Source: an uncultured Neisseria sp. | Lineage (GTDB): Bacteria; Pseudomonadota; Gammaproteobacteria; Burkholderiales; Neisseriaceae | Reading direction: 5' to 3' | DNA length: 64,000 bases | Assembly (NCBI GenBank): GCA_963456805.1 | Contig: CAUOMQ010000001.1 | Location: 3,699-67,698 of the forward strand | Shown here: positions 29,851 to 57,289 of the stretch, piece by piece | Layout: the number at the start of each line of letters is the position of its first letter | Position numbering within the stretch: the first letter of the stretch is position 1 | Notes under the pieces: model-generated | The model's input: the letters and a program-made list of their open reading frames with translations, nothing else | Databases searched by the model: none | Told to the model about the DNA's origin: nothing | Made by a program: the position numbers and the translations under genes

Positions 29851-29866
29851 ATCCCGCCTCTTCGAT

Positions 29867-30318: not shown

Positions 30319-30350
30319 TTTCTATCTCCAAAACGTTTATAAAAATAAAA

Positions 30351-30940: not shown

Positions 30941-30962
30941 ATTTCTTCCTTTTCAGACGACC

Positions 30963-32357: not shown

Positions 32358-32368
32358 TATGGATACTC

Positions 32369-32866: not shown

Positions 32867-33291
32867 CAGTAGCCTCCCAAATCCATTTTGTCGCGCACTC
32901 GGACGTGATATGCGCCCGGCTCAGGTTGCGACAGCTTGTCCAATGTGGCGATACCGATATGGATTTTGCCGTCGCGGATAGACTCAAGTGTTTTAATCGT
33001 CGTGTTGTAGGCGGTTTCCAGCGGTTTCGGAAAGTCGGCGCGGTTGATTCGGCGGCTGTGCAAAAAATGGCGGGCAATGTTGATGCATAAAGGCTGCAAC
33101 ACCGTCGGCGTTTCCGCCAAAGGCAGCACATATCTGCCACGCAGGTATCCGTCCACCAAATCGCAGGCATAACGCACTGCCGCATCAATGACCTGAGCGT
33201 CGGGTTCCGTCCCGCGCGCATTGTCGTTGGTCAGTTGCACCAACTCCATTTTGCCCATCGCAGCCGTCAAATCATCCGCGCCGATATACAT
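32866..33291 (-). CDS. Mu gp36-like protein (DUF1320-type)
   Basis: 141 aa. ..DLVDGYLRGRY.LP.. is typical of the family as I recall it. Confidence 0.65.
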   Translation of the reverse strand: MYIGADDLTAAMGKMELVQLTNDNARGTEPDAQVIDAAVRYACDLVDGYLRGRYVLPLAETPTVLQPLCINIARHFLHSRRINRADFPKPLETAYNTTIKTLESIRDGKIHIGIATLDKLSQPEPGAYHVRVRDKMDLGGY

Positions 33292-33294
33292 GGC

Positions 33295-33576
33295 TTACTC
33301 CGCCTCTTCGGCTGCTGCCGGTTTTTTACCGCGTTTCGGCTTTTCAACTTCGCCCGCAGTACCTGCATCATCTGACGGCGTATCTTCGGACGGTGGGGTG
33401 TCATTTTGTTGCGCATCCAGTTCTTCGCCGGTTGTCAGTGTCGGGGTAACGTGTGCCGCGACTGATTCGTACTGTTCCGGCGTTAATTCGACCGCTTCGC
33501 CAGCTTCGACGCGAAATTGGTTGCCTTGGGTGTTTTCCAAAATCAACGGAGTGTTTGCAATATAAACTTTAGCCAT
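33295..33576 (-). CDS. Hypothetical acidic head-module protein
   Basis: 93-aa ORF packed between head genes. Confidence 0.5.
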   Translation of the reverse strand: MAKVYIANTPLILENTQGNQFRVEAGEAVELTPEQYESVAAHVTPTLTTGEELDAQQNDTPPSEDTPSDDAGTAGEVEKPKRGKKPAAAEEAE

Positions 33577-33578
33577 GA

Positions 33579-33917
33579 TCAGCCTTTCAAGAATACTTGG
33601 ATGACTTCGCCCGCCGCAGTTGCCGCAGAGCGCGCCGTACCGGCAATCTTGGCATTACCTGCCGCCTTGACTGCCGCGCCTTGCGCATCGGCTGCTACTT
33701 CATCGCCGACGGCAATCGTGCCGCCTGCCTCGACTAAGGCGATACCCAATACATCGACAGCCAACATTTCGCCCGCATCCGCATCCAAAGTAGCAGTACC
33801 CAGCACTTTCACACCGGCGGCTGCCTGTTTGCCTGCGAAATCCACAAAGCGGTTTTTGACCACCTTGCCTGATGTTTTGACCGTGGTTACCAAGACCACT
33901 TGTTTCGTTTGTGCCAT
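33579..33917 (-). CDS. DUF2190-type small capsid-associated (decoration/cement-like) protein
   Basis: Start placed at ATG 33917 (MAQTKQ.., SD GGAGAG). It is Ala/Gly/Val-rich, 112 aa, and immediately after the major capsid gene. Confidence 0.65.
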   Translation of the reverse strand: MAQTKQVVLVTTVKTSGKVVKNRFVDFAGKQAAAGVKVLGTATLDADAGEMLAVDVLGIALVEAGGTIAVGDEVAADAQGAAVKAAGNAKIAGTARSAATAAGEVIQVFLKG

Positions 33918-33965
33918 TTTTCTCTCCACAGGTCGTCTGAAGCCTTTCAGACGACCTTTTACTTA

Positions 33966-34904
33966 TCAAGCAACCGCGTTTTCGAACAGGAAACCGCATG
34001 CACCGCCGACCACCGCCGCTTTGCGGATGTCGGTATAGCGCGCGTATTCCACCTTGCCGCCGACTTCTTCGTAGCGGTCGACTACCGGCATACCGCGACG
34101 GCGGAAGGTATAACCGAAGCTCGGCTCACCCTCGTCATTGCCACCGGAAGCCGTATGCGGACGCACAATCAGGCTGGCGAATTTGCCCCAAATATCTTGG
34201 GTGGCCTTATTGGCGGCAGGCGTAGATACCGCCTCGCCGACGATGATGTCGTCCAGCTCCAGCAGATTTTTCAGCTGCTCGACCGTGAGCAGGGACTTGC
34301 GTTCGTTTGCACCCAGCGCACCGATGAGCTTCTCGTGGCGTTTCAATGCCGCCAACACGCTTGCACCGACCACCAGCACCGACGGGCGTACACCGCAGCC
34401 GGCACGCACCGTTTCGCGGGCGGTTTCGATGTCTGCCAACGGATCAGAGTTTTTATCGCTCCATTTTTGGGTGGCGGCCAAGTCTTTGCTGAAACCGGAC
34501 TGATAAGCCGATTTGTTTTGCAGGAGGGCGGCAGTTTCGATTTCCTGACGCAGCTGCACGCCCTTGACCGCACGGCGTGTTGCCTTGGCGCGCTCGTCGT
34601 ACATGGATTCTGCTTGTTCGCGGTAATCCACACCGGCGGCCAAATCATGCTCTTCCAACACGACCGGCATAAAGCTTGGCGAGTCCAGCGTAATCACATT
34701 CGATGCCGCACCGACCGCACGTTCGGTCTGATACTCGACAAACGAACCCTTGCCGAACACCGGCACACGCACGCCTTCTTTTTCAGTAAACACCACCGGG
34801 AAGATTTTCTCGGCAATAAAATCCGCCTGCTTGTAGCCCAGTGCGAGATTGGTCAAAACCGGATCAAGCTGGCCGCGCAGGCCGCGCAAATGAGATGCAC
34901 TCAT
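33966..34904 (-). CDS. Major capsid protein (Mu T-like)
   Basis: 312 aa, directly downstream of the protease/scaffold gene. Confidence 0.85.
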   Translation of the reverse strand: MSASHLRGLRGQLDPVLTNLALGYKQADFIAEKIFPVVFTEKEGVRVPVFGKGSFVEYQTERAVGAASNVITLDSPSFMPVVLEEHDLAAGVDYREQAESMYDERAKATRRAVKGVQLRQEIETAALLQNKSAYQSGFSKDLAATQKWSDKNSDPLADIETARETVRAGCGVRPSVLVVGASVLAALKRHEKLIGALGANERKSLLTVEQLKNLLELDDIIVGEAVSTPAANKATQDIWGKFASLIVRPHTASGGNDEGEPSFGYTFRRRGMPVVDRYEEVGGKVEYARYTDIRKAAVVGGACGFLFENAVA

Positions 34905-34922
34905 GTTTTATCCTTTTTTAGG

Positions 34923-34950
34923 TCAAATGCGACGACATCGTCGCATTTGA
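34923..34950. repeat. Phage palindrome copy 1 (TCAAATGCGACGACATCGTCGCATTTGA)
   Basis: Near-perfect palindrome between the I-like stop and the capsid gene SD. Related copies lie at 41531 and 44206. Confidence 0.85.
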
Positions 34951-34962
34951 CGGGTTGATGAT

Positions 34963-36087
34963 TTAAGCAATAGTACGGCGGGCAGCCTCTTCGTAAGGGA
35001 TACCTTCCTTCGCCGCCAATGCCAATGCACGTTGGTGATGGCTCAAGGCTTCCGGGTCCGACGCTTCGGCAAAGTCTGCCGCCAATCCCGACGGCGTTTC
35101 ACCTTTAGCCATCTCGCCGCCCTGAATCTGCTTGGGCAGCACGGCAGTAAAAAACGCACGCAGCGCAGCAGACAAAGGCTGCTTCTTACTGCCTTCGCCG
35201 AAGTCGGCAGTTACGTCGTCAGGGTATTCGGCAAAATCCAAAACCTTGACGACCAAATCCTTGTCGGCAGGTTTCAGACGACCTTCTTTAACCAAGCCTT
35301 CAGCAAATTCGGCATTCTGCTCATGCGCACCATCGCGCAGGGCGGTATGCTGCTCGTCTTGCAGCTTTTTCAATTCCGCTTGCGATTCGGCGGCCTTCTT
35401 CTCGGCAGCTTCGCGGGCGGCCTTTTCGGCTGCAAGTTCTTGTTCCAGCGACATAGGGGTCTCCTTGTTTTCATGGTTTTCTGGGGGTGGGGGTGATTCG
35501 GTAAATTCGGCAGGCGCATGGGTTTGAGGCACGGCAGCCAATTCTTTAATTGCCTCAATTTGCCAGTCAGGCAGCACTTTATCGGCTTCTTCCAGACCGA
35601 AACGGCCGATAAACCAGTCTCTGAAACGGCTTAATAACGAGGCTGTCTGAAGGTGTGCGTCTTCGGCAAACTCGACATAAACTTCGCCCTCGGCAAAACT
35701 GATGGCGGACAAACCCTTGACTGCGGGCGGTTGCGCGCCCAAAAAGCCGACATGGCGTAGCGTCCAAACACCCGGTTTAGGATTGTTCGGGCTGGTTGGC
35801 GGGTAAAAACTTGCCGACACTTTTTTATATCGTCCGGCTTTAACCAAATCCGCAAAGCCTTCATCAACTTGGGCAAAGTCCGCCGTCAGCACGCCGTTTT
35901 GCACACCAAGCGACTTGACCCAGCCGTAGGCGGGCGCATCTGCCTTGGGATGCCCGACCACAATAGGAGCCTCATGCACCTTCGGGTCATATGCTTGGGC
36001 AGCGGCAGCAAGGTCGGCCTCGGTAATCGTTACCGTATTGCCGTTTGCATCGGTACGCGTCCCTGCACGGAAAATTTCGTAAGACAT
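34963..36087 (-). CDS. Mu I-like head protease/scaffold protein
   Basis: 374 aa. The N-terminal domain (..APIVVGHPK.DAPAYGWV..) is like Mu-like prophage I proteins, and the C-terminus is a charged scaffold-like region. Confidence 0.82.
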   Translation of the reverse strand: MSYEIFRAGTRTDANGNTVTITEADLAAAAQAYDPKVHEAPIVVGHPKADAPAYGWVKSLGVQNGVLTADFAQVDEGFADLVKAGRYKKVSASFYPPTSPNNPKPGVWTLRHVGFLGAQPPAVKGLSAISFAEGEVYVEFAEDAHLQTASLLSRFRDWFIGRFGLEEADKVLPDWQIEAIKELAAVPQTHAPAEFTESPPPPENHENKETPMSLEQELAAEKAAREAAEKKAAESQAELKKLQDEQHTALRDGAHEQNAEFAEGLVKEGRLKPADKDLVVKVLDFAEYPDDVTADFGEGSKKQPLSAALRAFFTAVLPKQIQGGEMAKGETPSGLAADFAEASDPEALSHHQRALALAAKEGIPYEEAARRTIA

Positions 36088-44853: not shown

Positions 44854-45519
44854 ATGAGTTTGATTTTTACTGGAAATATTCGTGAACTTCTTGCGAAAGA
44901 AGAGCTGACTATCGCCGAATTTGCCGATTTGATAGATGAAAAAGTATCTAGGGTAAATGATGTTTTAAGCGGAAAACAGCGTCCACCATTTGATATGGTG
45001 GAAAAAATATTGAGCAAATTTGATGTTGATGCAAACTGGCTGATTTCTGGAAAAAAGAATAGTAAAAGGAATATTTCTAGGTTGACGGCATTGTCAGACG
45101 ATTACGCCTATATCCCCATGTTCGATGTAGAAGTATCTGCGGGCAACGGCACGACTGCCTACGGTGTAACCGACCCCGCCAATCATCTGGCATTCAGAAG
45201 AGAATGGCTGCTCCAGCGCGGCTTGCATGAGCAAGACCTCAACATCGTTACAGCCAAAGGAGACAGCATGGAGCCGACCATCAGCAGCAAAGACACGCTG
45301 CTGGTTGATACCTCCAAAACCAATCCGCGCGATGGCCATATCTACGTCATCCGCAGCGGCGACGTGTTATGGGTAAAGCGAGTCCAACGACAAATCGACG
45401 GCAGCCTGCTCTTGATTTCCGACAACACGACCTATCCGCCTATGCCGCTGATGTTGTCAGACCATCCGGACATACAGGTTATTGGCCAAGTGGTTCAGAT
45501 TTCAAAAGACCTGAACTAG
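44854..45519 (+). CDS. CI/LexA-type (S24 peptidase) prophage repressor
   Basis: 221 aa with an N-terminal HTH (..LTIAEFADLIDEKVSRVNDVLSG..) and a C-terminal autocleavage domain (..AKGDSMEPTI.., ..WVKRV..). Confidence 0.85.
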   Translation: MSLIFTGNIRELLAKEELTIAEFADLIDEKVSRVNDVLSGKQRPPFDMVEKILSKFDVDANWLISGKKNSKRNISRLTALSDDYAYIPMFDVEVSAGNGTTAYGVTDPANHLAFRREWLLQRGLHEQDLNIVTAKGDSMEPTISSKDTLLVDTSKTNPRDGHIYVIRSGDVLWVKRVQRQIDGSLLLISDNTTYPPMPLMLSDHPDIQVIGQVVQISKDLN

Positions 45520-45542: not shown

Positions 45543-46103
45543 ATGAAAATACTCGCTTTATTAGTTGCCGCCACCTGTGCTTTATTTGCGTGTAGCGGTC
45601 AATATGAAGAGCAACCGGCACCTGCCCAGCCTCAAGAGCAAGTTCAATCCGAATTGAAAACCATGTCGGCAAGCTATGCCGAATATCAAGCAGCAGCCAA
45701 TAAAGGGCTTGCTGACCAAAAAACCGGCCTGACCTTGCCTGAACATGTAGCTCCAACCGATAAGACTGAAGGGAAGAATCTGCTGCATGATTTTTCAGAC
45801 GGCCTCACATTAACCGTTGATACCGATAAAGCTGACAAAATCACTGCTGTCCGAGTAGTCTGGAACACAGATGCGTCGTCTGAAAAAACAGAAAAACTGG
45901 CCAAAGCCGCTGCTGCTCTGATTGCAGCAACCGCTCCGGAAGATCACACCCTGTTACGTGACACTAATGAGCAAATCAAAATAGCGATTGACAACCATAA
46001 TGCGAAAAAAGACCCAACCCGTGAATGGGCGCGTGGTGGGATTGCTTATGAAGTCACTGTTACCAATTTACCGAGCGTGGTTTTGACGGCGAAACCTGAG
46101 TAA
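45543..46103 (+). CDS. Prophage lipoprotein co-transcribed with the repressor
   Basis: Start placed at ATG 45543 (MKILALLVAATCALFAC|SGQ.., lipobox LFAC, SD AAGGGA), 23 nt after the c stop. Confidence 0.7.
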   Translation: MKILALLVAATCALFACSGQYEEQPAPAQPQEQVQSELKTMSASYAEYQAAANKGLADQKTGLTLPEHVAPTDKTEGKNLLHDFSDGLTLTVDTDKADKITAVRVVWNTDASSEKTEKLAKAAAALIAATAPEDHTLLRDTNEQIKIAIDNHNAKKDPTREWARGGIAYEVTVTNLPSVVLTAKPE

Positions 46104-46279
46104 CCTGCATTACAGTCACAGACTGTTTGATCATCCGATAATGATGTGCCCCAAACTTGTCTTTAATAGAAAGCAATTCTCTCAAAATCAGTTTTATCCT
46201 CCTTAAAAGATTAGTTACTTCAGAGTGCAGCCTGCATGTAGAAGACCTGAAAAATATAGGGAAAAACGGAGTATTCAAA

Positions 46280-47200
46280 ATGGAACAGTCCAATTTAAAC
46301 CTTGATAGACAATCTGAAACTGAAACGTTCACCATTTCGTATAATTCTGCTGATGCCGATTTACAGAACCATCGGCTAAATGCAGGAGATTTAGCAACAG
46401 CCATTAAAGAAATGAATGACTTATTGGTAAAATCTGATAAGGTCTTAAATGGGAAAAAACGAAGTTTTGAAGTATTTGTAGAAGCGCCTGCAAAAGAGGG
46501 ATCACTCGGTGTTCAATTTTTAGTAGAAATGTTGAATCCTGAGAATGCTATGCCAGTTTTAGCCGCCGTTGGTGTGGTAGGAGGACTAGTAAAAACAACT
46601 TTTGATGTTGCTCGTGAAATGAATGGGCATACTTATCTTGATATTGAAACATGCGAAGATTCAGATGATGCCACAATTAAATTGGATGGGAAGACTATTA
46701 CCAGCCATGAGGATGTAGCGGTTTTGATATCCTATCCGGAAATCAGGGAATCCATTAAAAAGATTGTGACTGTACCTTTAGAAAACCATGAACAACCGGA
46801 ATTTAAAATTTTTAAATCTACTTCTACTGATACCGAAACCAGTGAAGCAAAAATCGAAACCGTCTCATTTGATGAAAAAGCAATCAAAGCAATTAGTCAG
46901 CTGAATACTCAGAATAAAGACCCTCAGATAGTTACCTTGAAAGCAGTCATCACTTTCGTCAAAATTAATTTTACGGGCAAGAAAGGCTGGAAAATTAAAT
47001 TAGACGGGAAAGAAGTCCCTGTAGAAATCAAAGACGACAATTTTTTTCTCCGAATTAAAAAGGCTACTCTTTCTTTTAAAGATGGAGATGAATACAATGC
47101 CGTATTAGAGCGTACATCACGATTTGATGGTAAAACCAATCAGGAAAAATTCAGTTATGCACTGATTAGCGCCAAGAAAAAGCGTAAACCTAAAAAATAA
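46280..47200 (+). CDS. Hypothetical 306-aa protein, first gene of the AT-rich cassette
   Basis: Start placed at ATG 46280 (MEQSNLNLDRQ.., GGAG upstream). It has a Gly-rich hydrophobic segment AMPVLAAVGVVGGLV, a duplicated IKLDGK(T/E) motif and the basic tail KKKRKPKK. I recognise no catalytic motif. Confidence 0.6.
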   Translation: MEQSNLNLDRQSETETFTISYNSADADLQNHRLNAGDLATAIKEMNDLLVKSDKVLNGKKRSFEVFVEAPAKEGSLGVQFLVEMLNPENAMPVLAAVGVVGGLVKTTFDVAREMNGHTYLDIETCEDSDDATIKLDGKTITSHEDVAVLISYPEIRESIKKIVTVPLENHEQPEFKIFKSTSTDTETSEAKIETVSFDEKAIKAISQLNTQNKDPQIVTLKAVITFVKINFTGKKGWKIKLDGKEVPVEIKDDNFFLRIKKATLSFKDGDEYNAVLERTSRFDGKTNQEKFSYALISAKKKRKPKK

Positions 47201-47211
47201 TTTGTATAGGA

Positions 47212-47460
47212 ATGAGAATGGCTGTTGTAGATTTTGTGTACAACAATCTGCTTTGGATAGGGATAATTTTGCTTATCCCTGTTTTCTCACGTCTAATGAA
47301 AATCATATTTTTCGAACTTTCCCTCTTCTTCAAACCTAACCATAAACTTACTATTCGACATTTCCATGAAGGCGCATTAAAAGACGAAATCACAATAGAC
47401 CTCAATGCTAATGAACCACTTGTCAGACAAATCAAGCGTATAAAACAGGGGGCAAAATGA
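47212..47460 (+). CDS. Small membrane protein (82 aa), cassette gene 2
   Basis: One N-terminal TM segment (LLWIGIILLIPVF), 11 nt after gene 1. Confidence 0.55.
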   Translation: MRMAVVDFVYNNLLWIGIILLIPVFSRLMKIIFFELSLFFKPNHKLTIRHFHEGALKDEITIDLNANEPLVRQIKRIKQGAK

Positions 47461-47855
47461 ATTCTGAAACAAATAACGTTGCCTCAGTACCTAAGGGTCA
47501 ATATGCCATTACAGCAGGTTGCTCTACGCTAGTTATTTGGGTCATCAATAATATCTTGCCTTCCAATCTAACAGAAATATTAATTGGTATCTCCCCCATT
47601 TTGGGTTCAATCATTGCATATTTTGTTTCTCTAGCCATTGCACAATGGGGATATACCCCAGAAGAAATTAAAATACGAAGAAAGTTGAAAACAGATAAAA
47701 AGAGTTTGGAGAAACTGTTGGATGATGCCAAAAAATATCCTCACCGTTATGAAGAATCCTATATCAACCAATTAAAACAAGAATTACAAGAAACCAATCT
47801 GGAATTGACTCGAGTTGGGCGAAAATCTTTAGAGCAAAATAATACAGACAAGTAA
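47457..47855 (+). CDS. Two-TM protein with coiled-coil tail (132 aa), cassette gene 3
   Basis: ATGA overlap with gene 2. TM segments lie around residues 18-36 and 40-63, followed by a charged helical C-terminus. Confidence 0.6.
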   Translation: MNSETNNVASVPKGQYAITAGCSTLVIWVINNILPSNLTEILIGISPILGSIIAYFVSLAIAQWGYTPEEIKIRRKLKTDKKSLEKLLDDAKKYPHRYEESYINQLKQELQETNLELTRVGRKSLEQNNTDK

Positions 47856-47866
47856 TTTTAACCCCC

Positions 47867-47936
47867 TTTAAAAGCCCATTCAGACGACCTTTCCTAAAAT
47901 CCCTGTATTGATTTCAACCTCAATACAGGGATTTTT
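47867..47936 (+). terminator. Late-leader module copy: TTTAAAAG + DUS + strong hairpin + T5, ending 2 nt before the endolysin ATG
   Basis: TTTAAAAGCCCATTCAGACGACCTTT-CCTAAA-ATCCCTGTATTGA/TTTCAACC/TCAATACAGGGAT-TTTTCT-ATG. Confidence 0.75.
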
Positions 47937-47938
47937 CT

Positions 47939-48442
47939 ATGTCAGACAAATTCAACCAATTCATCAACCGCGTCCTTTCTCACGAGGGCGGTTACGTCAA
48001 CCATCCCAAAGACCCCGGCGGCGAAACCAATTGGGGCATCACCAAGCGTACCGCGCAGGCAAACGGCTTTACCGGCTCCATGCGTGCCATGACCCGCGAA
48101 CAGGCTATCGGCATTTACCGTAAAGCGTTTTGGGAGCGTTACCACGCCGACAAAATGCCCGAAGCGGTCGCTTTCCAATTTTTTGATGCCTGCGTCAACC
48201 ACGGTTACGGCAATGCCGCCCGTATGCTCCAACGCGCCGCAGGCGTGCCGGACGACGGCATCATCGGCGAAATCAGCCTCAAAGCCATCAATTCCCTCAC
48301 CGAAAACGACCTTTTATTGCGGTTCAACGCCGAGCGTCTGGTCTTTTATACCAAGCTCGGTACGTTCACGTCTTTCGGCAAAGGCTGGGTCCGCCGCGTC
48401 GCGCAAAACCTGATCCACGCATCAGCGGACAACATTGATTAA
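47939..48442 (+). CDS. Endolysin, GH108 N-acetylmuramidase with PG-binding domain
   Basis: 167 aa. ..VLSHEGGYVNHPKDPGGETNWGIT.. is the GH108 signature. Confidence 0.85.
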   Translation: MSDKFNQFINRVLSHEGGYVNHPKDPGGETNWGITKRTAQANGFTGSMRAMTREQAIGIYRKAFWERYHADKMPEAVAFQFFDACVNHGYGNAARMLQRAAGVPDDGIIGEISLKAINSLTENDLLLRFNAERLVFYTKLGTFTSFGKGWVRRVAQNLIHASADNID

Positions 48443-50310: not shown

Positions 50311-50856
50311 ATGGCAAAACGCAGCGTCATCGACCAGCTCCCTGAAGCCGTCCGACACGAGTTTGAGCGCAAGCTCGTCGAAAACGGCTTCGCCGACTAT
50401 CAGGCATTATCCGAATGGTTGCAGCAGCAGGGCTACGAAATCAGCCGCTCCGCCGCCCATCGGTACGGCCAAAAAGTACAGCGTCGGTTTGCCGCCATCA
50501 AAAATAGTACCGAAGCGGCACGCCTGATTGCCGAAGGCGCGGCAGACGAAGGGGATACCCGCTCCGAAGCCTTAATGGCGATGTTGCAGACAGAGTTGTT
50601 TGAGGCATTGGTGCAGATTGGCGAGATGCCCGAAGACGAGTTAAACGCACTTGACCGTTTCGGGATTATGAGCGAGGGCGCGCGCAAAATCAGCGGTCTG
50701 ATTACCGCCGGAACGCGCCTTAAAGAATATCAGGCAAAAGTTAAAGCCAAAGTCGAAGCCGCCGCCGAAAACGTGGCCAAGCAGGCAAAAAAAGGCGGGC
50801 TGTCCGACGCGGCTGCCGAAGCCATCCGCAAACAGATTTTAGGTATCGCATCATGA
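50311..50856 (+). CDS. Mu gp27-like small terminase subunit (DUF3486-type)
   Basis: Start placed at ATG 50311 (MAKRSVIDQLPEAVRHEFERKL..). It overlaps the large terminase start. Confidence 0.7.
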   Translation: MAKRSVIDQLPEAVRHEFERKLVENGFADYQALSEWLQQQGYEISRSAAHRYGQKVQRRFAAIKNSTEAARLIAEGAADEGDTRSEALMAMLQTELFEALVQIGEMPEDELNALDRFGIMSEGARKISGLITAGTRLKEYQAKVKAKVEAAAENVAKQAKKGGLSDAAAEAIRKQILGIAS

Positions 50857-52349
50857 CATTGCCCAAAACCGAAGACCGCACGCCATCGGCATTGCTTCCT
50901 TATCAGCAGCGTTGGTGCGCCGATAACTCTCCCGTCAAACTCTGCGAAAAATCCCGACGCATCGGTCTGAGCTGGGGCGAGGCTGCCGATACCGCCTTAC
51001 TTGCCGCCTCATCTGGCGGCATGGACGCATGGTACATAGGCTACAACAAAGACATGGCTTTGGAGTTTATCCGCGATTGTGCCAACTGGGCGAAATTCTA
51101 CGGCTTGGCGGCTGGCGAAATCGAAGAAACCGAAGAAGTGTTTGTTGAAGGAGACGACAAAAAATCCGTCCTCGCCTTCGTCATCCGTTTCGCGTCCGGC
51201 TGGCGCGTTACCGCCTTATCCAGCCGCCCCTCAAACCTTCGCGGTAAGCAGGGGCGCGTCATCATCGACGAGGCGGCGTTCCACGAGCAGCTCGGCGAGC
51301 TGCTCAAAGCGGCAATGGCATTACTAATGTGGGGCGGTCAGGTACACATCATCTCTACCCATGACGGTGTGGACAATCCGTTCAACGAGCTGATTACCGA
51401 CATCCGTGCGGGCAAAAAGCCGTACTCCATCCACCGCATTACTTTCGACGAGGCCGTTTCAGACGGCCTCTACCGCCGCATCTGCCTGCGTTTGGGTAAA
51501 GAGTGGACGAAAGAGGGAGAGGAGGCATGGTGCAAAGAGATTCGTGATTTCTACGGCGACGATGCATCCGAAGAGTTGGACTGCATCCCTAAAAACGGCG
51601 GCGGCAAATGGCTCAACCGAGCCTTGATTGAGAGCCGTATGAGTCCTTATACGCCGGTTATCAGATACGACCAAAGCGATGAGTTCGGCCTCTTGCCCGA
51701 GCCGCGCCGCGCCGCCGAAGTAGCGGACTGGATAGCCGACACCCTGCAACCGCTGCTCGACGGTTTGGATAAAACCCGGGTTTCCTTTGTGGGTGAAGAC
51801 TTTGCCCGCAGCGGAGACCGTACTGTCATCGTCCCTTTATTGCAGCAGCCTAATTTAAGCCTTAAGCCGCCGTTCGTATTGGAGTTGGGCAATATGCCGT
51901 TTGCTCAACAAGAGCAAATCATGAAACACCTGTTGCACGGCTTACCCAATCTGCGCGGAGCGGCATTGGACGCGCGCGGCAACGGTCAGTCAATCGCCGA
52001 AGCCATGCGCGACGAATTTGGCGCGGAGGTATGCGAGTCGGTCATGCTCTCGGAAAACTGGTACCGCACCCATACCGCTCCGTTCGAAGCCGCCCTCGAA
52101 GACGGCACGTTGGACGCAATCCCCAAAGACGAAGACATCCTGACCGACCTGCGCGCCTTCGAGCTGGTCAGAGGCGTGCCGCGCATCCCCGATGCACGCA
52201 CCAAAGGTCAAGACGGCAAAAAACGCCACGGCGACGCGGCGATTGCCTTTGTCCTTGCCCATTACGCCAGCCGCGAGCTGAATACCGGACCGATACGCGT
52301 AGCCAGCCGCCGAATCCGCCGAAAAAGCGCATTAACCAAAGGTTATTAA
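50853..52349 (+). CDS. Terminase large subunit (Mu gp28-like)
   Basis: 498 aa with ATPase-like ..VIIDEAAFH.. and a C-terminal nuclease-like region. The portal gene follows. Confidence 0.85.
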   Translation: MTLPKTEDRTPSALLPYQQRWCADNSPVKLCEKSRRIGLSWGEAADTALLAASSGGMDAWYIGYNKDMALEFIRDCANWAKFYGLAAGEIEETEEVFVEGDDKKSVLAFVIRFASGWRVTALSSRPSNLRGKQGRVIIDEAAFHEQLGELLKAAMALLMWGGQVHIISTHDGVDNPFNELITDIRAGKKPYSIHRITFDEAVSDGLYRRICLRLGKEWTKEGEEAWCKEIRDFYGDDASEELDCIPKNGGGKWLNRALIESRMSPYTPVIRYDQSDEFGLLPEPRRAAEVADWIADTLQPLLDGLDKTRVSFVGEDFARSGDRTVIVPLLQQPNLSLKPPFVLELGNMPFAQQEQIMKHLLHGLPNLRGAALDARGNGQSIAEAMRDEFGAEVCESVMLSENWYRTHTAPFEAALEDGTLDAIPKDEDILTDLRAFELVRGVPRIPDARTKGQDGKKRHGDAAIAFVLAHYASRELNTGPIRVASRRIRRKSALTKGY

Positions 52350-52370
52350 GGTATTTAAAGAGTACATATC

Positions 52371-53840
52371 ATGCCCAAACCCCACCTCAAACTCAAAACC
52401 AGTCAAGGCATCATGACCTTCAAGCCGCAGGATTTATCTGCCCATCTCGCCGTTTCCCGCCAGTTTTTCAGCGGTTTTAACGGCTGGCTGCCTAATCCCG
52501 ACCCCGTTTTGCGCAAAATGGGCAGGCAAATCTCCGTTTACCGCGAGCTGATGCGCGACCCCTTGGTCGGCTCGCTGGTACGTCGCCGAAAAGCCGCCGT
52601 CGCCCGCCTCGAATGGCGGATTGAGAGCGAAGATACGCCCCAAAACGTCCGGGATTTTATTGATAGCTGGCTGGCTGAAACCGATGTTTACCGCCTGATT
52701 AAAGACGTTTTAAACGCCGTTTTTTACGGCTACCAGCCCATCGAGCTGATTTGGCGTACCGATTCTGCATGGCTGCCTGACAAAATCATCGCCAAGCCGC
52801 AAGAGTGGTTCGCCTTCAACGACGACGGCGAGTTGCGTTACATCCAAAACGGGCTGACCGATACCGTTCCTCCGCCTTATAAGTTTCTTTGCCCGACACA
52901 TGAGGCAGATTATCTAAACCCATACGGCTTAGGCGATTTGGGCTTGGTTTTTTGGCTGGTCACCTTCAAACGCGGCGGCCTTAAATTTTGGATGCAGTTC
53001 ACCGAGAAATACGGTGCGCCTTGGCTGATTGGTAAAGAGCCGCGTTCCAATACCCCGCAGGATACCGACAAGCTGCTAGACGCGCTCGAAGCTCTAATCG
53101 GCAACAGCGTCGGCACCATCCCCAACGATTCCAGTGTCGAAATCCACGAGGCAAGCGGCAAGGCATCATCTATTGATGCCTACGACAAGCTCATCCGTTA
53201 TTGCCGCTCCGAAATCAGCATTGCTCTGCTCGGACAAGACCAAACCACCGAAAAAGACAGTACCCACGCCAGCGCGACCGCTGGTTTGGAGGTAACGGAC
53301 GACATCCGTGACGGCGATACCCGTATTGTTGAGACGGCATTAAATCAGTTGATAAAGTGGGTGGTGGAGATTAATTTCGGAGACGTATCTGCGCCGAAAT
53401 TCGTGCTGTTTGAAAACGAGGAGAGCGGCACAAAAGAGCGGGCCGAAAGAGATAAGATGATGGTGGATGCCGGTGCCAAGTTCACCAACCAATACTGGCA
53501 GCGCACATACGGCCTTGAGGACGGCGACTTGGCGGACGAAGTCCAACCAACCCAAGAGGGTAGATCTGCTGATTTTGCCGAGTTCGATTTGACGGATGCA
53601 GGTTTGGTCATCGACGGACTTGCACCCGATACAGGCATCCTGAATAAACAAGGCGAACGGCTGACTGCCGTTCTAGTGGCTGAATTAAGGCAGGGAGAAA
53701 CCGCCGAGAACCTGCTTGACCGTTTGTCCGCCGCCTATCCGAATATGGACGATACCGCCTTACAAAACGAGTTGGCACGCCTGATTTTCCTTTCCGACTT
53801 GGTCGGCAGGATTGAAGTGGTACAGGAGCTTAAATCATGA
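52371..53840 (+). CDS. Portal protein (Mu gp29, DUF935-type)
   Basis: 489 aa in the canonical position between the terminase and the F-like gene. Confidence 0.85.
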   Translation: MPKPHLKLKTSQGIMTFKPQDLSAHLAVSRQFFSGFNGWLPNPDPVLRKMGRQISVYRELMRDPLVGSLVRRRKAAVARLEWRIESEDTPQNVRDFIDSWLAETDVYRLIKDVLNAVFYGYQPIELIWRTDSAWLPDKIIAKPQEWFAFNDDGELRYIQNGLTDTVPPPYKFLCPTHEADYLNPYGLGDLGLVFWLVTFKRGGLKFWMQFTEKYGAPWLIGKEPRSNTPQDTDKLLDALEALIGNSVGTIPNDSSVEIHEASGKASSIDAYDKLIRYCRSEISIALLGQDQTTEKDSTHASATAGLEVTDDIRDGDTRIVETALNQLIKWVVEINFGDVSAPKFVLFENEESGTKERAERDKMMVDAGAKFTNQYWQRTYGLEDGDLADEVQPTQEGRSADFAEFDLTDAGLVIDGLAPDTGILNKQGERLTAVLVAELRQGETAENLLDRLSAAYPNMDDTALQNELARLIFLSDLVGRIEVVQELKS

Positions 53841-54739
53841 ACCCCCAAGATATTAAAGCCGTCTTCGGCATGACGCCGGAAGCCGCCGTCGCCTATCTAA
53901 AGCAAAAAGGCATTGCCGTATCTTGGGATTGGCAGGATATGTTGGACGACGCGCACGCCACTGCCTTTACGGTGGCCAAAACCGCCAAAATGGATGTACT
54001 CTCCGACATCTATTCCGCCGTCGTCGATGCCGCCGAACAAGGCCGGACGATGGAAGAGTTCAGCCGCGAACTCGCCCCCGTCTTACAACGCAAAGGCTGG
54101 TGGGGCAGGCAGGAAATTAAAAATCCCGAAGGCGAAACCCAAAGCGTACAGCTTGGCAGCCCCCACCGCCTGAAAACCATCTATCTGACCAATATGCAGT
54201 CAGCCTACATGGCAGGCCGCTACGCCGAAATGATGGACTCCATCGACACACACCCTTATTGGCAGTACGTCGCCATCAACGACAGCCGCACCCGCGATAC
54301 TCACCGTATGATGCACAACCGTGTCTATGCCGCCGACGACCCTGTTTGGGATACCTTATATCCGCCGCTTGATTTCCGCTGTCGGTGCCGCGTCAAACCC
54401 CTGTCGCGCAGTGCGGGAGAAGGGCGCGTCCAACCCCGTCCGACGCTTGAAACCATTACCGTCGATATAGGTTCAAATCCCTATACCGGCGAGGAGCGTT
54501 ACGCACAACGTACCGGCATCCGTATCAATAACAAATTTATCGCACCAAATGCAGGCTTCAATGCCAACCAAGGCAAATCCATGCTGTCCCGCATGGCGCA
54601 AATCGCCATAGACAAAGCGCAGGCAACCCATCCGGACATCGCCCGTATCGCCATCAAGACCATGATGGCTAACCGAAAATTCAAAAACGCCCTAACCCCC
54701 GAATCATTGGCATGGGTGCGTGAATTATTGAGGGGCTGA
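53837..54739 (+). CDS. Mu F-like head morphogenesis protein (gp30)
   Basis: ..INDSRTRDTHRMMHNRVY...DFRCRCRV.. is the Phage_Mu_F signature. Confidence 0.85.
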   Translation: MNPQDIKAVFGMTPEAAVAYLKQKGIAVSWDWQDMLDDAHATAFTVAKTAKMDVLSDIYSAVVDAAEQGRTMEEFSRELAPVLQRKGWWGRQEIKNPEGETQSVQLGSPHRLKTIYLTNMQSAYMAGRYAEMMDSIDTHPYWQYVAINDSRTRDTHRMMHNRVYAADDPVWDTLYPPLDFRCRCRVKPLSRSAGEGRVQPRPTLETITVDIGSNPYTGEERYAQRTGIRINNKFIAPNAGFNANQGKSMLSRMAQIAIDKAQATHPDIARIAIKTMMANRKFKNALTPESLAWVRELLRG

Positions 54740-54741
54740 CC

Positions 54742-55185
54742 ATGCTTGAGATTAAATTAGATGCAGAGAGGCTCGACCACGGTTTAAGTACACTGCTCAA
54801 AAACGCCACCGATACCCGCACCATGATGCGGGGCATCGCCACCGAGCTGCTGTCCATGACCGAAGAAAACTTCGAATCCGAAGGTTGGGGCGGACAGCGG
54901 TGGAAACAAAGCCGTCGCGCCGCAGATGAAGGAGGCAAAACCCTGCAAAAAAGCGGGCAACTCGCCGCCAGCCTAACCACACAGGTTGGCAGCAACTATG
55001 CCCGCATCGGCAGCAACAAAAAATACGCCGCCATCCACCACCTCGGCGGCCAAGCGGGGCGCGGCCACAAAACCAACCTCCCCGCGCGCCCCTATCTCCC
55101 TATCAACGGCAACAACCAACCCCAACCAGACGCCAAACGCCGAATCCTAGACATCGCCATCGCCGCCCTCAAAAAAGGACTCTGA
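54742..55185 (+). CDS. Virion morphogenesis protein (Mu G-like)
   Basis: 147 aa with ..GSNKKYAAIHHLGGQAGRG....PARPYL.. . Confidence 0.75.
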   Translation: MLEIKLDAERLDHGLSTLLKNATDTRTMMRGIATELLSMTEENFESEGWGGQRWKQSRRAADEGGKTLQKSGQLAASLTTQVGSNYARIGSNKKYAAIHHLGGQAGRGHKTNLPARPYLPINGNNQPQPDAKRRILDIAIAALKKGL

Positions 55186-55195
55186 CAACAAAAAA

Positions 55196-55222
55196 CGGAC
55201 GAGAAAAAACCGTCCGTTTTTT
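55196..55222 (+). terminator. Terminator after the G-like gene
   Basis: CGGACG-AGAAAAAAC-CGTCCG-TTTTTT. Its T-run is the first part of the 38-nt border sequence. Confidence 0.7.
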
Positions 55223-55253
55223 GTTTCACTATTTGCAACTCTTTTTCACTTTT
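55216..55253. repeat. 38-nt border sequence, copy B (GTTTTTTGTTTCACTATTTGCAACTCTTTTTCACTTTT)
   Basis: Same orientation as copy A at 14387-14424, with one mismatch (C at 55236 versus T at 14407). Confidence 0.9.
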
Positions 55254-55400
55254 TCCATCCCGCCTAATCCCCCATCATCCCACTTCTTCCCATTTATCTC
55301 ATCATTCCTATATATTTATCTCATTGGGTTTCAACTTGATGAGTGTCGGAGGATTAAAATGGAAAATGCCCGCTTACTGACATTCATTACATTCGTGATG

Positions 55401-55447
55401 AAAAAGGTCGTCTGAAACCCGTGTAATTAGGTTTCAGACGACCTTTT
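55401..55447 (-). terminator. DUS-pair terminator after aspS
   Basis: Sense strand: AAAAGGTCGTCTGAAACC...GGGTTTCAGACGACCTTTTT. Confidence 0.7.
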
Positions 55448-55480
55448 GACTGTCAGGTGTTGCCCACCTGCTTTTAAAAA

Positions 55481-57289
55481 TTACGCTTCTTTATTTTCGG
55501 TCGCTTTTTGACGTAGGCGCAAGCTCAATTCGCGCAGTTGTTTGTCGTCCACCGCATTCGGCGCGTTGGTCAGCAGACATTGGGCGCGTTGGGTTTTCGG
55601 GAAGGCAATCACGTCGCGGATGGACTCAGCGCCGGTCATCAGTGTTACCAGACGGTCGAGACCGAATGCCAAACCGCCGTGAGGAGGCGCGCCGAATTTC
55701 AGGTTGTCCAAGAGGAAGCCGAATTTTTCCTGTTGCTCTTCGGGGCTGATTTTCAGTGCGGCAAACACTTTTTCCTGTACGTCGGCACGGTGGATACGGA
55801 TAGAACCGCCGCCGATTTCCCAGCCGTTCAACACCATGTCGTAGGCGCGTGCCAGGCAGTTTGCCGGGTCGGAAACCATCAGGTCTTCGTGACCTTCTTT
55901 AGGCGCGGTAAACGGATGGTGTACGGCAACGTAGCGGTCGGCTTCTTCGTCGTATTCGAACATCGGGAAATCGACGACCCACAAAGGTTTCCATTCGTCC
56001 ACGAAGTAGCCGTTTTCCGCGCCATGTTCCAAACCGACTTTGATACGCAGCGCGCCGATGGCTTCGTTCACGACTTTGGCTTTGTCTGCGCCGAAGAAGA
56101 TGATGTCGCCGTTTTGTGCTCCGGTACGGGCAATGATTTCTTTCAGGGCGTTTTCAGACAGGAATTTCACGATTGGAGATTGCAGGCCGCTGTCTTCGCC
56201 GTTGGAGAGGTTGCTGACGTCGTTCACTTTGATGTACGCCAAACCTTTTGCGCCGTAGATGCCGACAAATTTGGTGTATTCGTCGATTTCTTTGCGGCTG
56301 AATTTTGCACCGTTCGGTACGCGCAGGGCAACCACGCGGCCGCCCTTCATGTCGGCTGCGCCACGGAAGACTTTGAACTCTTCCGTTTTCATCAGGTCGG
56401 TCAGCTCGGTAAATTTCAGGCTGATGCGCATATCGGGTTTGTCGGAGCCGTAGTAGAACATGGCTTCAGAGTAAGGCATACGTGGGAAGTCGCCCAAGTC
56501 CACGCCCAATGCGTCTTGGAAGACTTGTTTTGCCATACCTTCGGTGATGTCCATGATTTCATCCTCGTTCAAGAACGAGGTTTCCAAGTCGATTTGGGTG
56601 AATTCGGGCTGGCGGTCGGCACGCAGGTCTTCGTCGCGGAAGCACTTGGTGATTTGGTAGTAACGGTCGAAACCCGCCACCATCAACAGTTGTTTGAACA
56701 ATTGCGGCGATTGTGGCAGCGCGAAGAACTCGCCCGGATGAACGCGGCTCGGCACGAGGTAGTCGCGTGCACCTTCAGGCGTGGAGCGGGTCAGCATCGG
56801 GGTTTCGATGTCGATGAAGCCTTGCGCGTCGAGATAACGGCGAACGCCCATAGCGACTTGATAACGCAGGCGCAGGTTGCGCTGCATCACCGGACGGCGC
56901 AGGTCGATAACGCGGTTGGTCAGGCGCACGTTTTCGCTGATGTTTTCGTCGTCAATTTGGAACGGCGGCGTAGCGGCGGCGTTCAAGACTTCGATTTCTT
57001 TGGCAAGGATTTCGATTTTGCCGGAAATCATTTTGTCGTTGGTTGTACCTTCGGGACGGTTGCGCACGCGGCCGGTAATGCTCAAAACGTATTCGTTGCG
57101 GGCGGAATCGGCAGTGGCAAACGCTTCGGGCGTGTCGGGGTCAATCACGACTTGGACGATGCCTTCGCGGTCGCGCAGGTCGATAAAAATCACACCGCCG
57201 TGGTCGCGCCGGCGGTGCACCCAGCCTTTGACGGTTACGGTTTGGTCTAAGTATTGCTCGCTGATCAGGCCGCAATAGTTGGTACGCAT
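55481..57289 (-). CDS. aspS: Aspartate--tRNA ligase
   Basis: 602 aa with class II aaRS motifs (..[16 protein letters not shown].., ..GGGSIRIH.., ..GLDRL..). Confidence 0.95.

What the first reader, a model, noticed from the sequence alone, without database searches (positions are those of the whole stretch)
45543..47936. Lysogeny-arm cargo: a lipoprotein gene and an AT-rich, DUS-free three-gene operon downstream of the repressor gene; candidate undescribed exclusion/defence module
In Mu the repressor gene sits at the very end of the genome. Here the c gene (44854-45519) is followed in the same orientation by four extra genes. The first is a lipoprotein gene only 23 nt downstream (45543-46103), so it is probably co-transcribed with c. 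After a 176-nt gap comes a tight operon: a 306-aa soluble protein (46280-47200), an 82-aa one-TM protein (47212-47460) and a 132-aa two-TM coiled-coil protein (47457-47855, ATGA overlap). The operon is visibly much more AT-rich than the rest of the prophage. I found no full uptake sequence in it, although such sequences pepper the flanking phage genes. Together these points argue for recent horizontal acquisition. It is sealed from the lysis genes by a 12-13 bp perfect hairpin with a T-run (47897-47936). Being on the repressor strand and insulated from the late genes is what one expects of genes expressed in the lysogen. I recognise no nuclease, ATPase, methylase, TIR, SIR2 or toxin motif. The large protein has a glycine-zipper-like hydrophobic segment (AMPVLAAVGVVGGLV), a duplicated IKLDGK(T/E) motif and a KKKRKPKK tail. 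A cytoplasmic component with two small membrane partners is a layout seen in abortive-infection and superinfection-exclusion systems, but this particular set matches none that I know.
Basis: partly seen in the sequence, partly recalled or inferred. Interest (0 to 1): 0.75.

Follow-up and report, generated by a model that had tools for sequence, protein, structure and literature searches.

The report
Prophage defence cassette related to MichelleMyBell gp29
A 1.7-kb AT-rich three-gene insert in a Neisseria Mu-like prophage is a Gram-negative version of a mycobacteriophage anti-phage system (MichelleMyBell gp29/gp30) whose mechanism is still unknown, so it is a known kind of element in a new three-gene form.

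Summary

The operon is horizontally acquired cargo: near-identical sister prophages have 53 bp where this window has 46115-47855.

It is not an undescribed family. The 306-aa protein passes the curated cut-off of NCBIfam NF053583 ("LAPAL"). It also matches PADLOC candidate PDC-S42 and phrog_3243. Mycobacteriophage MichelleMyBell gp29 matches the same three models and aligns to my family profile almost end to end (hhalign 97.9%, E 5e-13). gp29/gp30 is a published prophage-encoded defence of unknown mechanism.

What I did not find described is the architecture. In all 12 Gram-negative contexts I examined, the gene is followed by two small genes: a one-TM protein of about 80 aa, and a protein of 120-160 aa with two hydrophobic segments and a charged C-terminal tail. 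Neither resembles gp30.

The cassette sits in accessory slots:
- after cI in lambdoid prophages;
- between G and I in Mu-like prophages;
- next to integrases;
- on Pseudomonas megaplasmids.

The DUS argument is not significant, and the hairpin belongs to the phage backbone. Defence is inferred, not shown. I rate it a new variant of a known kind, of moderate interest.

The parts
44854..45519 (+). c repressor gene (HTH_3 + S24 peptidase). It heads the rightward lysogeny-strand unit and diverges from the ner-like, transposase and B-ATPase early arm.
   Evidence: Pfam PF01381 and PF00717, phrog_4. It is 98-99% identical in sister prophages L020, L021 and L023.
45543..46103 (+). Lipoprotein gene (186 aa, lipobox LFAC). 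This is the first cargo gene and is itself variable among sister prophages. Function unknown; the family is seen only in Neisseriaceae.
   Evidence: Signal peptide found by Kyte-Doolittle scan. phrog_36373 at 4e-119. No Pfam, PADLOC or PDB match. The homologues that carry a name are from Neisseria and Eikenella. Present in L020/21/22/25/28 and absent in L023/27/29.
46115..47855 (.). Limits of the inserted AT-rich cassette. It starts 11 nt after the lipoprotein stop codon and ends flush with the stop codon of gene C.
   Evidence: blastn against L020 and L021: homology runs to 46114 and resumes at 47856, with 53 bp there in place of 1741 bp here. GC is 0.360, the minimum of the whole window.
46115..46142 (+). 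Weak sigma-70-like promoter match (GTCACA-16-GATAAT) at the left junction of the insert. It is only a possible internal promoter.
   Evidence: Consensus scan, 9 of 12 matches, and the number of sites in the region is no higher than in shuffles. The upstream 140 nt are not shared with the L001 copy of the cassette, where homology starts at 46255.
46280..47200 (+). Gene A: a 306-aa soluble protein of the gp29 / LAPAL / PDC-S42 family. The secondary-structure order of its C-terminal part (about 216-300) is that of an OB fold, and it ends in a basic tail.
   Evidence: NF053583 133 bits against a cut-off of 60. PDLC05015 3e-21. phrog_3243 8.7e-72. hhalign of the family profile against MichelleMyBell gp29: 97.9%, E 4.8e-13. 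AlphaFold pLDDT 90.7. Foldseek results.
47212..47460 (+). Gene B: an 80-82-aa membrane protein with one N-terminal TM segment and a conserved motif (I-x-H-x-H-x-G ... D-x-x-E-P-L) in its positively charged C-terminal part. The likely true start is 47218.
   Evidence: Kyte-Doolittle scan. 40% identical to the L005 partner, E 2e-21. Alignment A4. An HMM finds it next to A in independent loci such as Proteus L106.
47457..47855 (+). Gene C: a 132-aa membrane protein with one clear TM segment, a weaker hydrophobic stretch upstream of it, and a charged, lysine/glutamate-rich C-terminal half. It overlaps B by ATGA.
   Evidence: Kyte-Doolittle scans. 32% identical to the L005 partner, E 6e-17. Alignment A5. 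HMM hits in independent loci: L106 at 7.9e-15, L009/L010 at 7e-9, L100 at 2e-5.
47896..47935 (+). Backbone hairpin followed by a T-run, not part of the cassette. It probably terminates the c/cargo transcript. Its 3' arm covers the GGGA Shine-Dalgarno of the endolysin gene.
   Evidence: RNA fold -23.9 kcal/mol, z = -5.98. Conserved in 11 related prophages, with compensatory stem changes in L028 and L029.
47939..48442 (+). Endolysin gene (GH108 + PG_binding_3). It is the first late/lysis gene and marks the right border of the cargo slot.
   Evidence: Pfam PF05838 and PF09374, phrog_315. Used as the anchor for 76 related loci.

Best explanation
Window 46115-47855 is a mobile three-gene accessory cassette (a moron). 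It is inserted in the variable cargo slot between the c repressor gene and the lysis genes of a Mu-like Neisseria prophage.

Its large gene A encodes a soluble protein of about 300 aa. A is homologous to mycobacteriophage MichelleMyBell gp29, the large component of the published gp29/gp30 prophage-mediated defence. The same family is listed as PADLOC PDC-S42, NCBIfam NF053583 "LAPAL" and phrog_3243.

In Gram-negative hosts, A travels with two small inner-membrane proteins that are unrelated in sequence to gp30:
- B, with one TM segment and a positively charged C-terminal part carrying an H-x-H motif;
- C, with one or two TM segments and a charged C-terminal half.

Most likely working (inferred, not shown). 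The cassette is transcribed in the lysogen, by read-through from the c/lipoprotein unit and perhaps also from a weak promoter of its own. Transcription stops at the backbone hairpin. By the positive-inside rule, the charged tails of B and C should face the cytoplasm, where they could hold or regulate A at the inner membrane. When an unrelated phage infects, A would be triggered or released and the infection would abort or be excluded. The trigger may involve nucleic acid, given A's OB-like C-terminal part with invariant W237 and F255 and a basic tail.

What is shown: the insertion limits, the family membership, the three-gene co-occurrence and the accessory-slot locations. What is inferred: expression in the lysogen, the A-B-C interaction, nucleic-acid sensing and the anti-phage phenotype.
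For: Cassette status:
- Sister prophages L020 and L021 (c and endolysin 98-99% identical) have 53 bp instead of 1741 bp.
- GC is 0.36, the minimum of the window.
- Other sister prophages carry different low-GC cargo in the same slot, including PDC-M11A/B.

Family membership:
- The window protein scores 133 bits on NF053583 and MichelleMyBell gp29 scores 181 bits, against a cut-off of 60.
- PDLC05015: 3e-21 for the window protein and 1.6e-16 for gp29. All 53 sampled family members hit this model.
- phrog_3243: 8.7e-72 for the window protein and 7.3e-81 for gp29.
- hhalign of the family profile against gp29: 97.9%, E 4.8e-13, 266 columns.
- The GenBank record of a Vibrio phage annotates its homologue "MMB_gp29_gp30__gp29".
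[quoted passage not shown] MichelleMyBell lysogens cut Tweety plating by four to five orders of magnitude (PMC8549241).

Three-gene unit:
- A is followed by B-like and C-like genes in Neisseria, L005, L011, Avibacterium, Vitreoscilla, L016, Aeromonas, Thalassobium, Vibrio, a Pseudomonas megaplasmid, Proteus and L100.
- Pairwise E-values for the B and C partners are 2e-21 and 6e-17.

Locations typical of lysogen-expressed or accessory genes:
- directly after cI, opposite cro;
- between Mu G and I;
- next to integrases;
- in MichelleMyBell, between the lysis cassette and the integrase/repressor genes.

Structure and transcription:
- AlphaFold model with pLDDT 90.7.
- Sub-domain matches to OB folds such as SSB Rim1, ExoVII and LysRS, with probability 0.9-0.99.
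- No convincing + strand terminator before the backbone hairpin.
Against: - No experiment bears on this cassette or on any proteobacterial member.
- PDC-S42 is only a guilt-by-embedding candidate (bioRxiv 10.1101/2024.01.29.577857).
- Identity to gp29 is very low. Pairwise BLASTP gives E 0.038 over 34 residues. Homology rests on profiles, and function may have diverged.
- B and C show no similarity to gp30, so the partner logic may differ.
- In two Mu-like prophages the trio lies inside the late head-gene region, so it might be expressed late.
- The OB-fold assignment rests on secondary-structure order and on weak Foldseek E-values of 0.04-0.2.
- The primary paper on gp29/gp30 (Dedrick 2017, PMC5508108) is not held in the library, so I did not read it.
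- NCBI names the family a putative structural protein.
Confidence: 0.6

Rival explanations
1. It is a toxin-antitoxin or addiction-type module. Its main role would be to stabilise the mobile element that carries it (prophage, satellite or megaplasmid). A would be the toxin, and the membrane proteins would keep it in check. There would be no dedicated anti-phage role.
For: gp29 is reported as toxic, with gp30 as its partner (PMC11856565). The trio is carried on 30 large Pseudomonas plasmids outside any obvious prophage. The genes are tightly overlapping.
Against: MichelleMyBell lysogens defend against Tweety (PMC8549241). Toxin-antitoxin and abortive-infection roles are not exclusive of each other. 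The cassette repeatedly occupies slots that elsewhere hold exclusion or candidate defence genes, such as the rex position and PDC-M11 in a sister prophage.
Confidence: 0.12
2. It serves the phage's own lytic cycle rather than the lysogen, for example in host takeover or counter-defence. On this reading its placement next to c here is incidental.
For: In the Aeromonas and Thalassobium Mu-like prophages the trio lies between G and I, inside the late head region. From general knowledge, that site carries anti-CRISPR genes in Pseudomonas Mu-like phages. In this window it sits immediately upstream of the lysis genes.
Against: It is on the repressor strand and is separated from the late genes by a conserved hairpin. 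In lambdoid prophages it sits directly after cI and diverges from cro. It occurs on megaplasmids and in a P4-like element with no lytic cycle of their own. Its homologue gp29/gp30 acts from the prophage.
Confidence: 0.1
3. A is a virion structural or assembly protein, as the NCBIfam name says ("LAPAL motif-containing putative phage structural protein").
For: The NCBIfam NF053583 label. The position between the head genes G and I in two Mu-like prophages.
Against: Near-identical prophages lack it entirely. It lies in lysogeny modules next to cI or the integrase. It occurs on megaplasmids. Its partners are membrane proteins. No capsid or tail fold match was found.
Confidence: 0.03
4. It is a lysis-timing module, with B and C acting as holin/antiholin-like proteins for the adjacent endolysin.
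For: It is adjacent to the GH108 endolysin gene. Both small proteins are membrane proteins. C has a weak match to phrog_8369, "hol-like chemotaxis" (E 4e-4).
Against: The backbone already has a membrane protein and Rz-like spanin genes downstream of the endolysin. Sister prophages lyse without the trio. In other genomes the trio is nowhere near lysis genes. A terminator-like hairpin separates it from the endolysin gene.
Confidence: 0.03

Closest known systems
MichelleMyBell gp29/gp30 prophage-mediated defence (DefenseFinder system MMB_gp29_gp30; Dedrick et al. 2017, Nat Microbiol)
   Same: The large protein is homologous over almost its full length and has the same size (306 against 310 aa). 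Both pass the same NCBIfam, PADLOC and PHROG models. Both are prophage-borne. In both, a small membrane-protein gene follows immediately, close or overlapping. Both lie in a variable region next to lysis and immunity genes.
   Different: Here there are two partner genes (B with one TM segment, C with one or two) instead of one 67-aa protein with two TM segments. Neither is detectably related to gp30. The host is a Gram-negative bacterium, whereas the system was reported as detected only in Actinobacteria (PMC10482375). Pairwise similarity to gp29 is at the limit of detection. There is no phenotype for this version.
PADLOC PDC-S42 (single-gene phage defence candidate found by guilt-by-embedding; bioRxiv 10.1101/2024.01.29.577857)
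   Same: A and all 53 sampled relatives match model PDLC05015.
   Different: PADLOC lists it as a single-gene system and as an untested candidate. Here, in Gram-negative hosts, it is part of a conserved three-gene unit. I found A alone only in a Listeria phage.
Phage lambda RexA/RexB
   Same: The layout is similar: a soluble protein of about 300 aa plus small membrane protein(s), on the repressor strand. In Avibacterium and L016 the trio lies directly downstream of cI, which is the rex position.
   Different: There is no sequence or profile similarity to RexA or RexB (hhalign probability 0.2%). No RexA structure appears among the Foldseek PDB matches. RexB has about four hydrophobic segments, against one in B and one or two in C.
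Accessory (anti-CRISPR) locus between G and the protease gene of Pseudomonas Mu-like phages (general knowledge, not tested here)
   Same: In the Aeromonas and Thalassobium Mu-like prophages the trio occupies the same G-I interval.
   Different: The content is unrelated. In the window the cassette sits in a different slot, between c and the endolysin gene.

Membership tests
gp29 / LAPAL / PDC-S42 protein family (NCBIfam NF053583, PADLOC PDLC05015, phrog_3243) | A protein of about 300 aa that matches the family profile over its full length and above the curated cut-off. | tested here: met
   NF053583: 133.3 bits against a cut-off of 60, residues 17-289 on profile positions 1-277 of 292. PDLC05015: 3e-21. 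phrog_3243: 8.7e-72. There are 876 representative clusters at E<=1e-3, nearly all 280-320 aa long.
gp29 / LAPAL / PDC-S42 protein family | The experimentally studied member (MichelleMyBell gp29) belongs to the same family. | tested here: met
   gp29 scores 181.4 bits on NF053583, 1.6e-16 on PDLC05015 and 7.3e-81 on phrog_3243. hhalign against my profile A2 gives 97.9% probability and E 4.8e-13.
MMB_gp29_gp30 two-gene defence system | A gp30 homologue (small membrane protein) encoded immediately downstream of gp29. | tested here: not met
   hhalign of the B profile (A4) and the C profile (A5) against gp30 gives probability 0.1-0.2%. A functional analogy remains: small TM proteins lie directly downstream.
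MMB_gp29_gp30 two-gene defence system | Encoded by a temperate phage in a region expressed from the prophage. | tested here: inconclusive
   The location fits: same strand as c, no convincing terminator before the backbone hairpin, and a variable cargo slot. Expression itself cannot be tested from sequence.
MMB_gp29_gp30 two-gene defence system | Protects the lysogen against heterotypic phage, and gp29 is toxic without its partner. | not testable with these tools
   This needs cloning and phage challenge. The only literature statements available are for MichelleMyBell (PMC11856565, PMC8549241).
Lambda RexAB | Homology to RexA and to RexB (four TM segments). | tested here: not met
   hhalign probability is 0.2% for both. 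The TM counts differ. No RexA structure appears among the Foldseek PDB matches.
Phage structural protein (the NCBIfam label) | Conserved presence in related phages, within the virion gene module. | tested here: not met
   It is absent from near-identical prophages L020 and L021. It is found after cI, next to integrases, in a P4-like element and on megaplasmids.
Holin/antiholin lysis module | Constant linkage to an endolysin gene, and a match to known holin families. | tested here: not met
   There are no Pfam or NCBIfam holin matches. Linkage to an endolysin gene is seen only in the Neisseria prophages.

The most novel reading that the evidence does not exclude
The Gram-negative A-B-C trio could be a distinct three-component membrane-associated abortive-infection or exclusion system. 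Its cytoplasmic protein, with a fold not represented in the PDB and an OB-like C-terminal part, would sense a phage nucleic-acid signal. It would then act through two dedicated small inner-membrane proteins. That would be a mechanism not yet described for any defence system. It would also mean that PDC-S42 and MMB_gp29_gp30 are one widespread superfamily spanning Actinobacteria, Firmicutes and Proteobacteria.
Probability: 0.3. Interest if true: 0.65.

Novelty: new variant of a known kind. Interest (0 to 1): 0.5.

Why it matters
This work links four database entries that are kept apart:
- DefenseFinder MMB_gp29_gp30, reported as detected only in Actinobacteria;
- PADLOC PDC-S42, an untested single-gene candidate;
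- NCBIfam "LAPAL putative phage structural protein";
- phrog_3243, function unknown.

It also shows that in Gram-negative bacteria the gene comes as a fixed three-gene cassette. That cassette hops between the classical accessory slots of unrelated temperate elements and megaplasmids.

This gives three things:
- an experimentally tractable Gram-negative model for a defence family whose mechanism is unknown;
- a correction for a misleading NCBI product name;
- a variable cargo slot in Neisseria Mu-like prophages that could be mined for further systems.

It is not a new kind of biology unless the mechanism turns out to be new.

Tried and rejected
- Word-indexed protein search with A found only 8 close relatives. 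With the 53-sequence profile it was no better.
- Pattern-based locus searches with alignments failed for lack of a conserved stretch. With alignment A1 nothing was found in genome contigs. Single distant members in viral contigs gave one locus or none.
- megablast and tblastn of the window sequences against the phage collection found nothing. Only the family medoid P0029 gave hits.
- AlphaFold with the 8-sequence alignment was useless (pLDDT 52). The 53-sequence alignment fixed it.
- A PDB sequence search with the family profile found nothing. Foldseek against the PDB gave no whole-protein match.
- RexA/RexB homology was rejected. I also tested whether the alternative 322-aa + 160-aa cargo of sister prophages is RexAB-like; it is not.
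- I tested whether the L028 cargo (229 + 90 aa) is a split relative of A. The result was not significant.
- A Pfam hint of a PD-(D/E)XK nuclease in A (E 0.0099, below the cut-off) was not pursued, because no conserved catalytic motif appears among the invariant residues.
- Literature searches for \"PDC-S42\" and \"LAPAL motif\" found no papers.
- The primary Dedrick 2017 paper is not held. The stored copy of the PADLOC supplement is cut before PDC-S42.
- A search for repeats at the two odd prophage junctions found only DUS copies.
Full report

Yes. The ORF list and the sequence show the following genes:
- the c repressor gene, 44854-45519, with HTH_3 and Peptidase_S24 domains;
- a lipoprotein gene 23 nt downstream, 45543-46103, with a signal peptide and an LFAC lipobox;
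- a 176-nt gap;
- A, 46280-47200, 306 aa;
- B, 47212-47460, 82 aa;
- C, 47457-47855, 132 aa, overlapping B by ATGA.

A Kyte-Doolittle scan gives one TM segment in B. In C it gives one strong segment, plus a weaker upstream stretch that passes the threshold in several homologues. The glycine-rich hydrophobic stretch of A is borderline and is a helix in a confident model, so A is probably soluble.

The operon has a GC content of 0.360. That is the lowest of any 1741-bp window in the 64 kb (mean 0.520, sd 0.044). Its GC3 is 0.30-0.36, against 0.70 in the endolysin gene.

The hairpin at 47896-47935 is real (-23.9 kcal/mol, z = -6).

The absence of uptake sequences is true but says nothing:
- With GCCGTCTGAA, 0.35-0.46 copies are expected in the cassette, so P(0) is 0.63-0.70.
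- The host's main dialect is actually AG-mucDUS, with 50 GTCGTCTGAA copies.
- Counting both dialects, I estimate P(0) at about 0.2-0.4.

**2. What is it physically?**

I used the endolysin gene as an anchor and fetched 76 related loci.

Two sister prophages have c and endolysin genes 98-99% identical to the window. They are L020 (an uncultured Neisseria) and L021 (Neisseria sp. CP9). In both, the order is c, lipoprotein, endolysin, with no A, B or C.

blastn places the break points exactly. Homology runs to window 46114 and resumes at 47856. The sister prophages have 53 bp where the window has 1741 bp. The right edge is flush with the stop codon of C.

The 83 nt from 47856 to the endolysin ATG, hairpin included, are backbone. 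They are conserved in 11 prophages. The stem is kept by compensatory changes in L028 and L029. So the hairpin does not belong to the module. It closes the cargo slot whatever the cargo is, and its 3' arm covers the endolysin Shine-Dalgarno sequence.

The c-to-endolysin interval is a variable slot. Its content in the sister prophages is all low-GC (0.35-0.42):

| Loci | Cargo in the slot |
|---|---|
| L024 | PDC-M11A/B, another PADLOC candidate |
| L022, L025, L029 | a 322-333-aa protein plus a 160-aa protein with four TM segments |
| L023, L027 | an Excalibur-domain protein plus a secreted protein |
| L028 | a 229-aa plus a 90-aa pair |

The lipoprotein gene is itself variable cargo. Its family is confined to Neisseriaceae and has no functional clue.

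**3. What family is A?**

Three curated libraries recognise A:
- NCBIfam NF053583, "LAPAL motif-containing putative phage structural protein": 133 bits against a cut-off of 60;
- PADLOC PDC-S42: 3e-21;
- phrog_3243: 8.7e-72.

An exhaustive profile search finds 876 representative clusters, nearly all 280-320 aa long. All 53 sampled members match PDC-S42.

PDC systems are untested candidates. They were derived from genes embedded in BREX, DISARM or type I RM loci (bioRxiv 10.1101/2024.01.29.577857).

The key lead came from a GenBank note on a Vibrio phage homologue, "MMB_gp29_gp30__gp29". I fetched mycobacteriophage MichelleMyBell and tested its gp29 (310 aa):
- It aligns to my family profile over 266 columns, with hhalign probability 97.9% and E 4.8e-13.
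- It passes NF053583 at 181 bits.
- It matches PDC-S42 at 1.6e-16.
- It matches phrog_3243 at 7.3e-81.

gp29/gp30 is a published prophage-mediated defence. It is described as a toxic gp29 plus a putative membrane protein gp30, with unknown mechanism (PMC11856565). MichelleMyBell lysogens reduce plating of phage Tweety by four to five orders of magnitude (PMC8549241). I could not read the primary paper.

So the family is not undescribed, and the NCBI "structural" label is contradicted.

**4. What I did not find described: a three-gene unit.**

In every Gram-negative context I could examine, A is followed by two genes. The first encodes a 79-90-aa protein with one TM segment. The second encodes a 120-161-aa membrane protein.

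| Context | Position of the trio |
|---|---|
| This Neisseria prophage and its relatives | between c/lipoprotein and endolysin |
| Metagenome contigs L005 and L011 | short contigs |
| Avibacterium lambdoid prophage | directly after cI |
| Vitreoscilla | P4-like element |
| L016 | after an array of cI-like genes |
| Aeromonas and Thalassobium Mu-like prophages | between G and I |
| Temperate PM2-like Vibrio element | next to its integrase |
| Pseudomonas megaplasmids (30 of 34 plasmid-collection hits; pBM413 examined) | on the plasmid, not in an obvious prophage |
| Proteus mirabilis | not examined |
| Viral contig L100 | not examined |

The B and C partners are homologous across these contexts. 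Pairwise E-values are 2e-21 and 6e-17 at 39% identity of A. HMMs built from part of the set find them in loci not used for building: Proteus at 7.5e-8 and 7.9e-15, Thalassobium C at 7e-9, and L100 C at 2e-5. The Vibrio and Pseudomonas partners are too diverged for the HMMs, but they keep the size, order and TM pattern.

B carries a conserved I-x-H-x-H-x-G ... E-P-L motif in its positively charged C-terminal part. C has a charged C-terminal half.

Neither B nor C resembles gp30, which is 67 aa with two TM segments. In the Listeria phage vB_LmoS_188, A stands alone in the lysogeny module.

**5. Structure.**

With the 53-sequence alignment, AlphaFold gives pLDDT 90.7 and pTM 0.81.

Foldseek finds no whole-protein match in the PDB (best E 0.04, TM 0.21 or lower). 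It finds only sub-domain matches to OB folds: SSB Rim1, ExoVII and LysRS (probability 0.9-0.99).

Residues 216-300 have the beta1-3, alpha, beta4-5 order of an OB fold. They hold the invariant W237 and F255 and end in a basic tail.

In the viral structure library the only significant matches are uncharacterised proteins. They include a DUF6575 protein and a protein of mycobacteriophage Pipsqueaks.

There is no relation to RexA or RexB.

**6. Most likely working.**

Shown:
- it is a mobile accessory cassette;
- A belongs to the gp29 family;
- the unit has three genes;
- it occupies accessory or lysogeny slots.

Inferred:
- it is expressed in the lysogen on the c transcript, since no convincing terminator is predicted before the backbone hairpin;
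- B and C anchor or regulate A at the inner membrane through their predicted cytoplasmic tails;
- a signal from an infecting phage, perhaps nucleic acid, releases or activates A;
- the result is abortive infection or exclusion.

I put about 0.6 on a defence role and much less on the details.

Rivals are a pure addiction module (0.12), a lytic-cycle or counter-defence function (0.10), a structural protein (0.03) and lysis timing (0.03).

**7. Verdict.**

Its defence-cargo idea is strengthened by context and homology. Its claim of novelty is reduced.

This is a new three-gene, Gram-negative variant of a known but mechanistically unsolved defence family. It unifies MMB_gp29_gp30, PDC-S42, LAPAL and phrog_3243. 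Interest is moderate (0.5).

Noticed in passing
window 27091-36087 (- strand) and 50853-57289: The late region of the prophage is split. Terminase, portal, F and G (50853-55185, + strand) run straight into the host aspS gene (55481-57289). The capsid, sheath and tape-measure genes lie on the minus strand to the left of the early arm. This looks like an inversion of the block [early arm + c..G], so the prophage may be rearranged or defective.
   Followed up: partly
whole window; e.g. 47879-47890, 55405-55444: The host's dominant uptake sequence is the AG-mucDUS dialect, AGGTCGTCTGAA. There are 38 full 12-mers and 50 GTCGTCTGAA cores, against 13 GCCGTCTGAA. This points to the N. mucosa/sicca group. 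One copy lies in the phage backbone just after the cassette.
   Followed up: yes
L024:5482-6916; L022:5465-6912; L025:5429-6912; L029:4814-6914; L023:6065-6906; L027:4775-5611; L028:5949-6920: Sister Neisseria prophages carry other low-GC cargo in the same c-to-endolysin slot. L024 has PADLOC PDC-M11A/B (with an ASCH domain). L022, L025 and L029 have an uncharacterised 322-333-aa protein plus a 160-aa protein with four TM segments; this layout resembles Rex but shows no RexAB similarity. L023 and L027 have an Excalibur-domain protein plus a secreted protein. L028 has a 229-aa plus 90-aa pair. The slot could be mined for further systems.
   Followed up: partly
L016:1403-6524: Six tandem genes for S24-peptidase (cI/LexA-like) proteins lie in a row upstream of the trio in a metagenomic lambdoid prophage. 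This is an unusual array of repressor paralogues.
   Followed up: no
window 47896-47938: The 3' arm of the backbone hairpin contains the GGGA that would serve as the endolysin Shine-Dalgarno, and the T-run ends 2 nt before the ATG. The hairpin could therefore both terminate lysogenic transcripts and mask lysis-gene translation. Where the late promoter for the endolysin gene lies is unclear.
   Followed up: partly
NCBIfam NF053583 (window 46280-47200; L099:6383-7315): NCBI's product name "putative phage structural protein" is applied to a family that includes MichelleMyBell gp29, a published defence component. The name is probably wrong and will spread through PGAP annotations.
   Followed up: yes
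window 47212-47220: Gene B has two in-frame ATGs (47212 and 47218). The AGGA lies 6 nt before the second, so the protein is probably 80 aa rather than 82.
   Followed up: no
window 46673-46693 and 46997-47017 (A residues 132-138 and 240-246): The duplicated IKLDGK(T/E) motif falls in two similar strand-turn-strand elements, each followed by a helix, in the middle and C-terminal parts of the model. This hints at an internal domain duplication in the family.
   Followed up: no
L001:5076-5306: In a related prophage that carries the trio (A 96% identical), an extra 76-aa Excalibur-domain gene sits between c and the lipoprotein gene. The 140 nt upstream of A also differ from the window. The cargo genes therefore assort independently.
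   Followed up: partly
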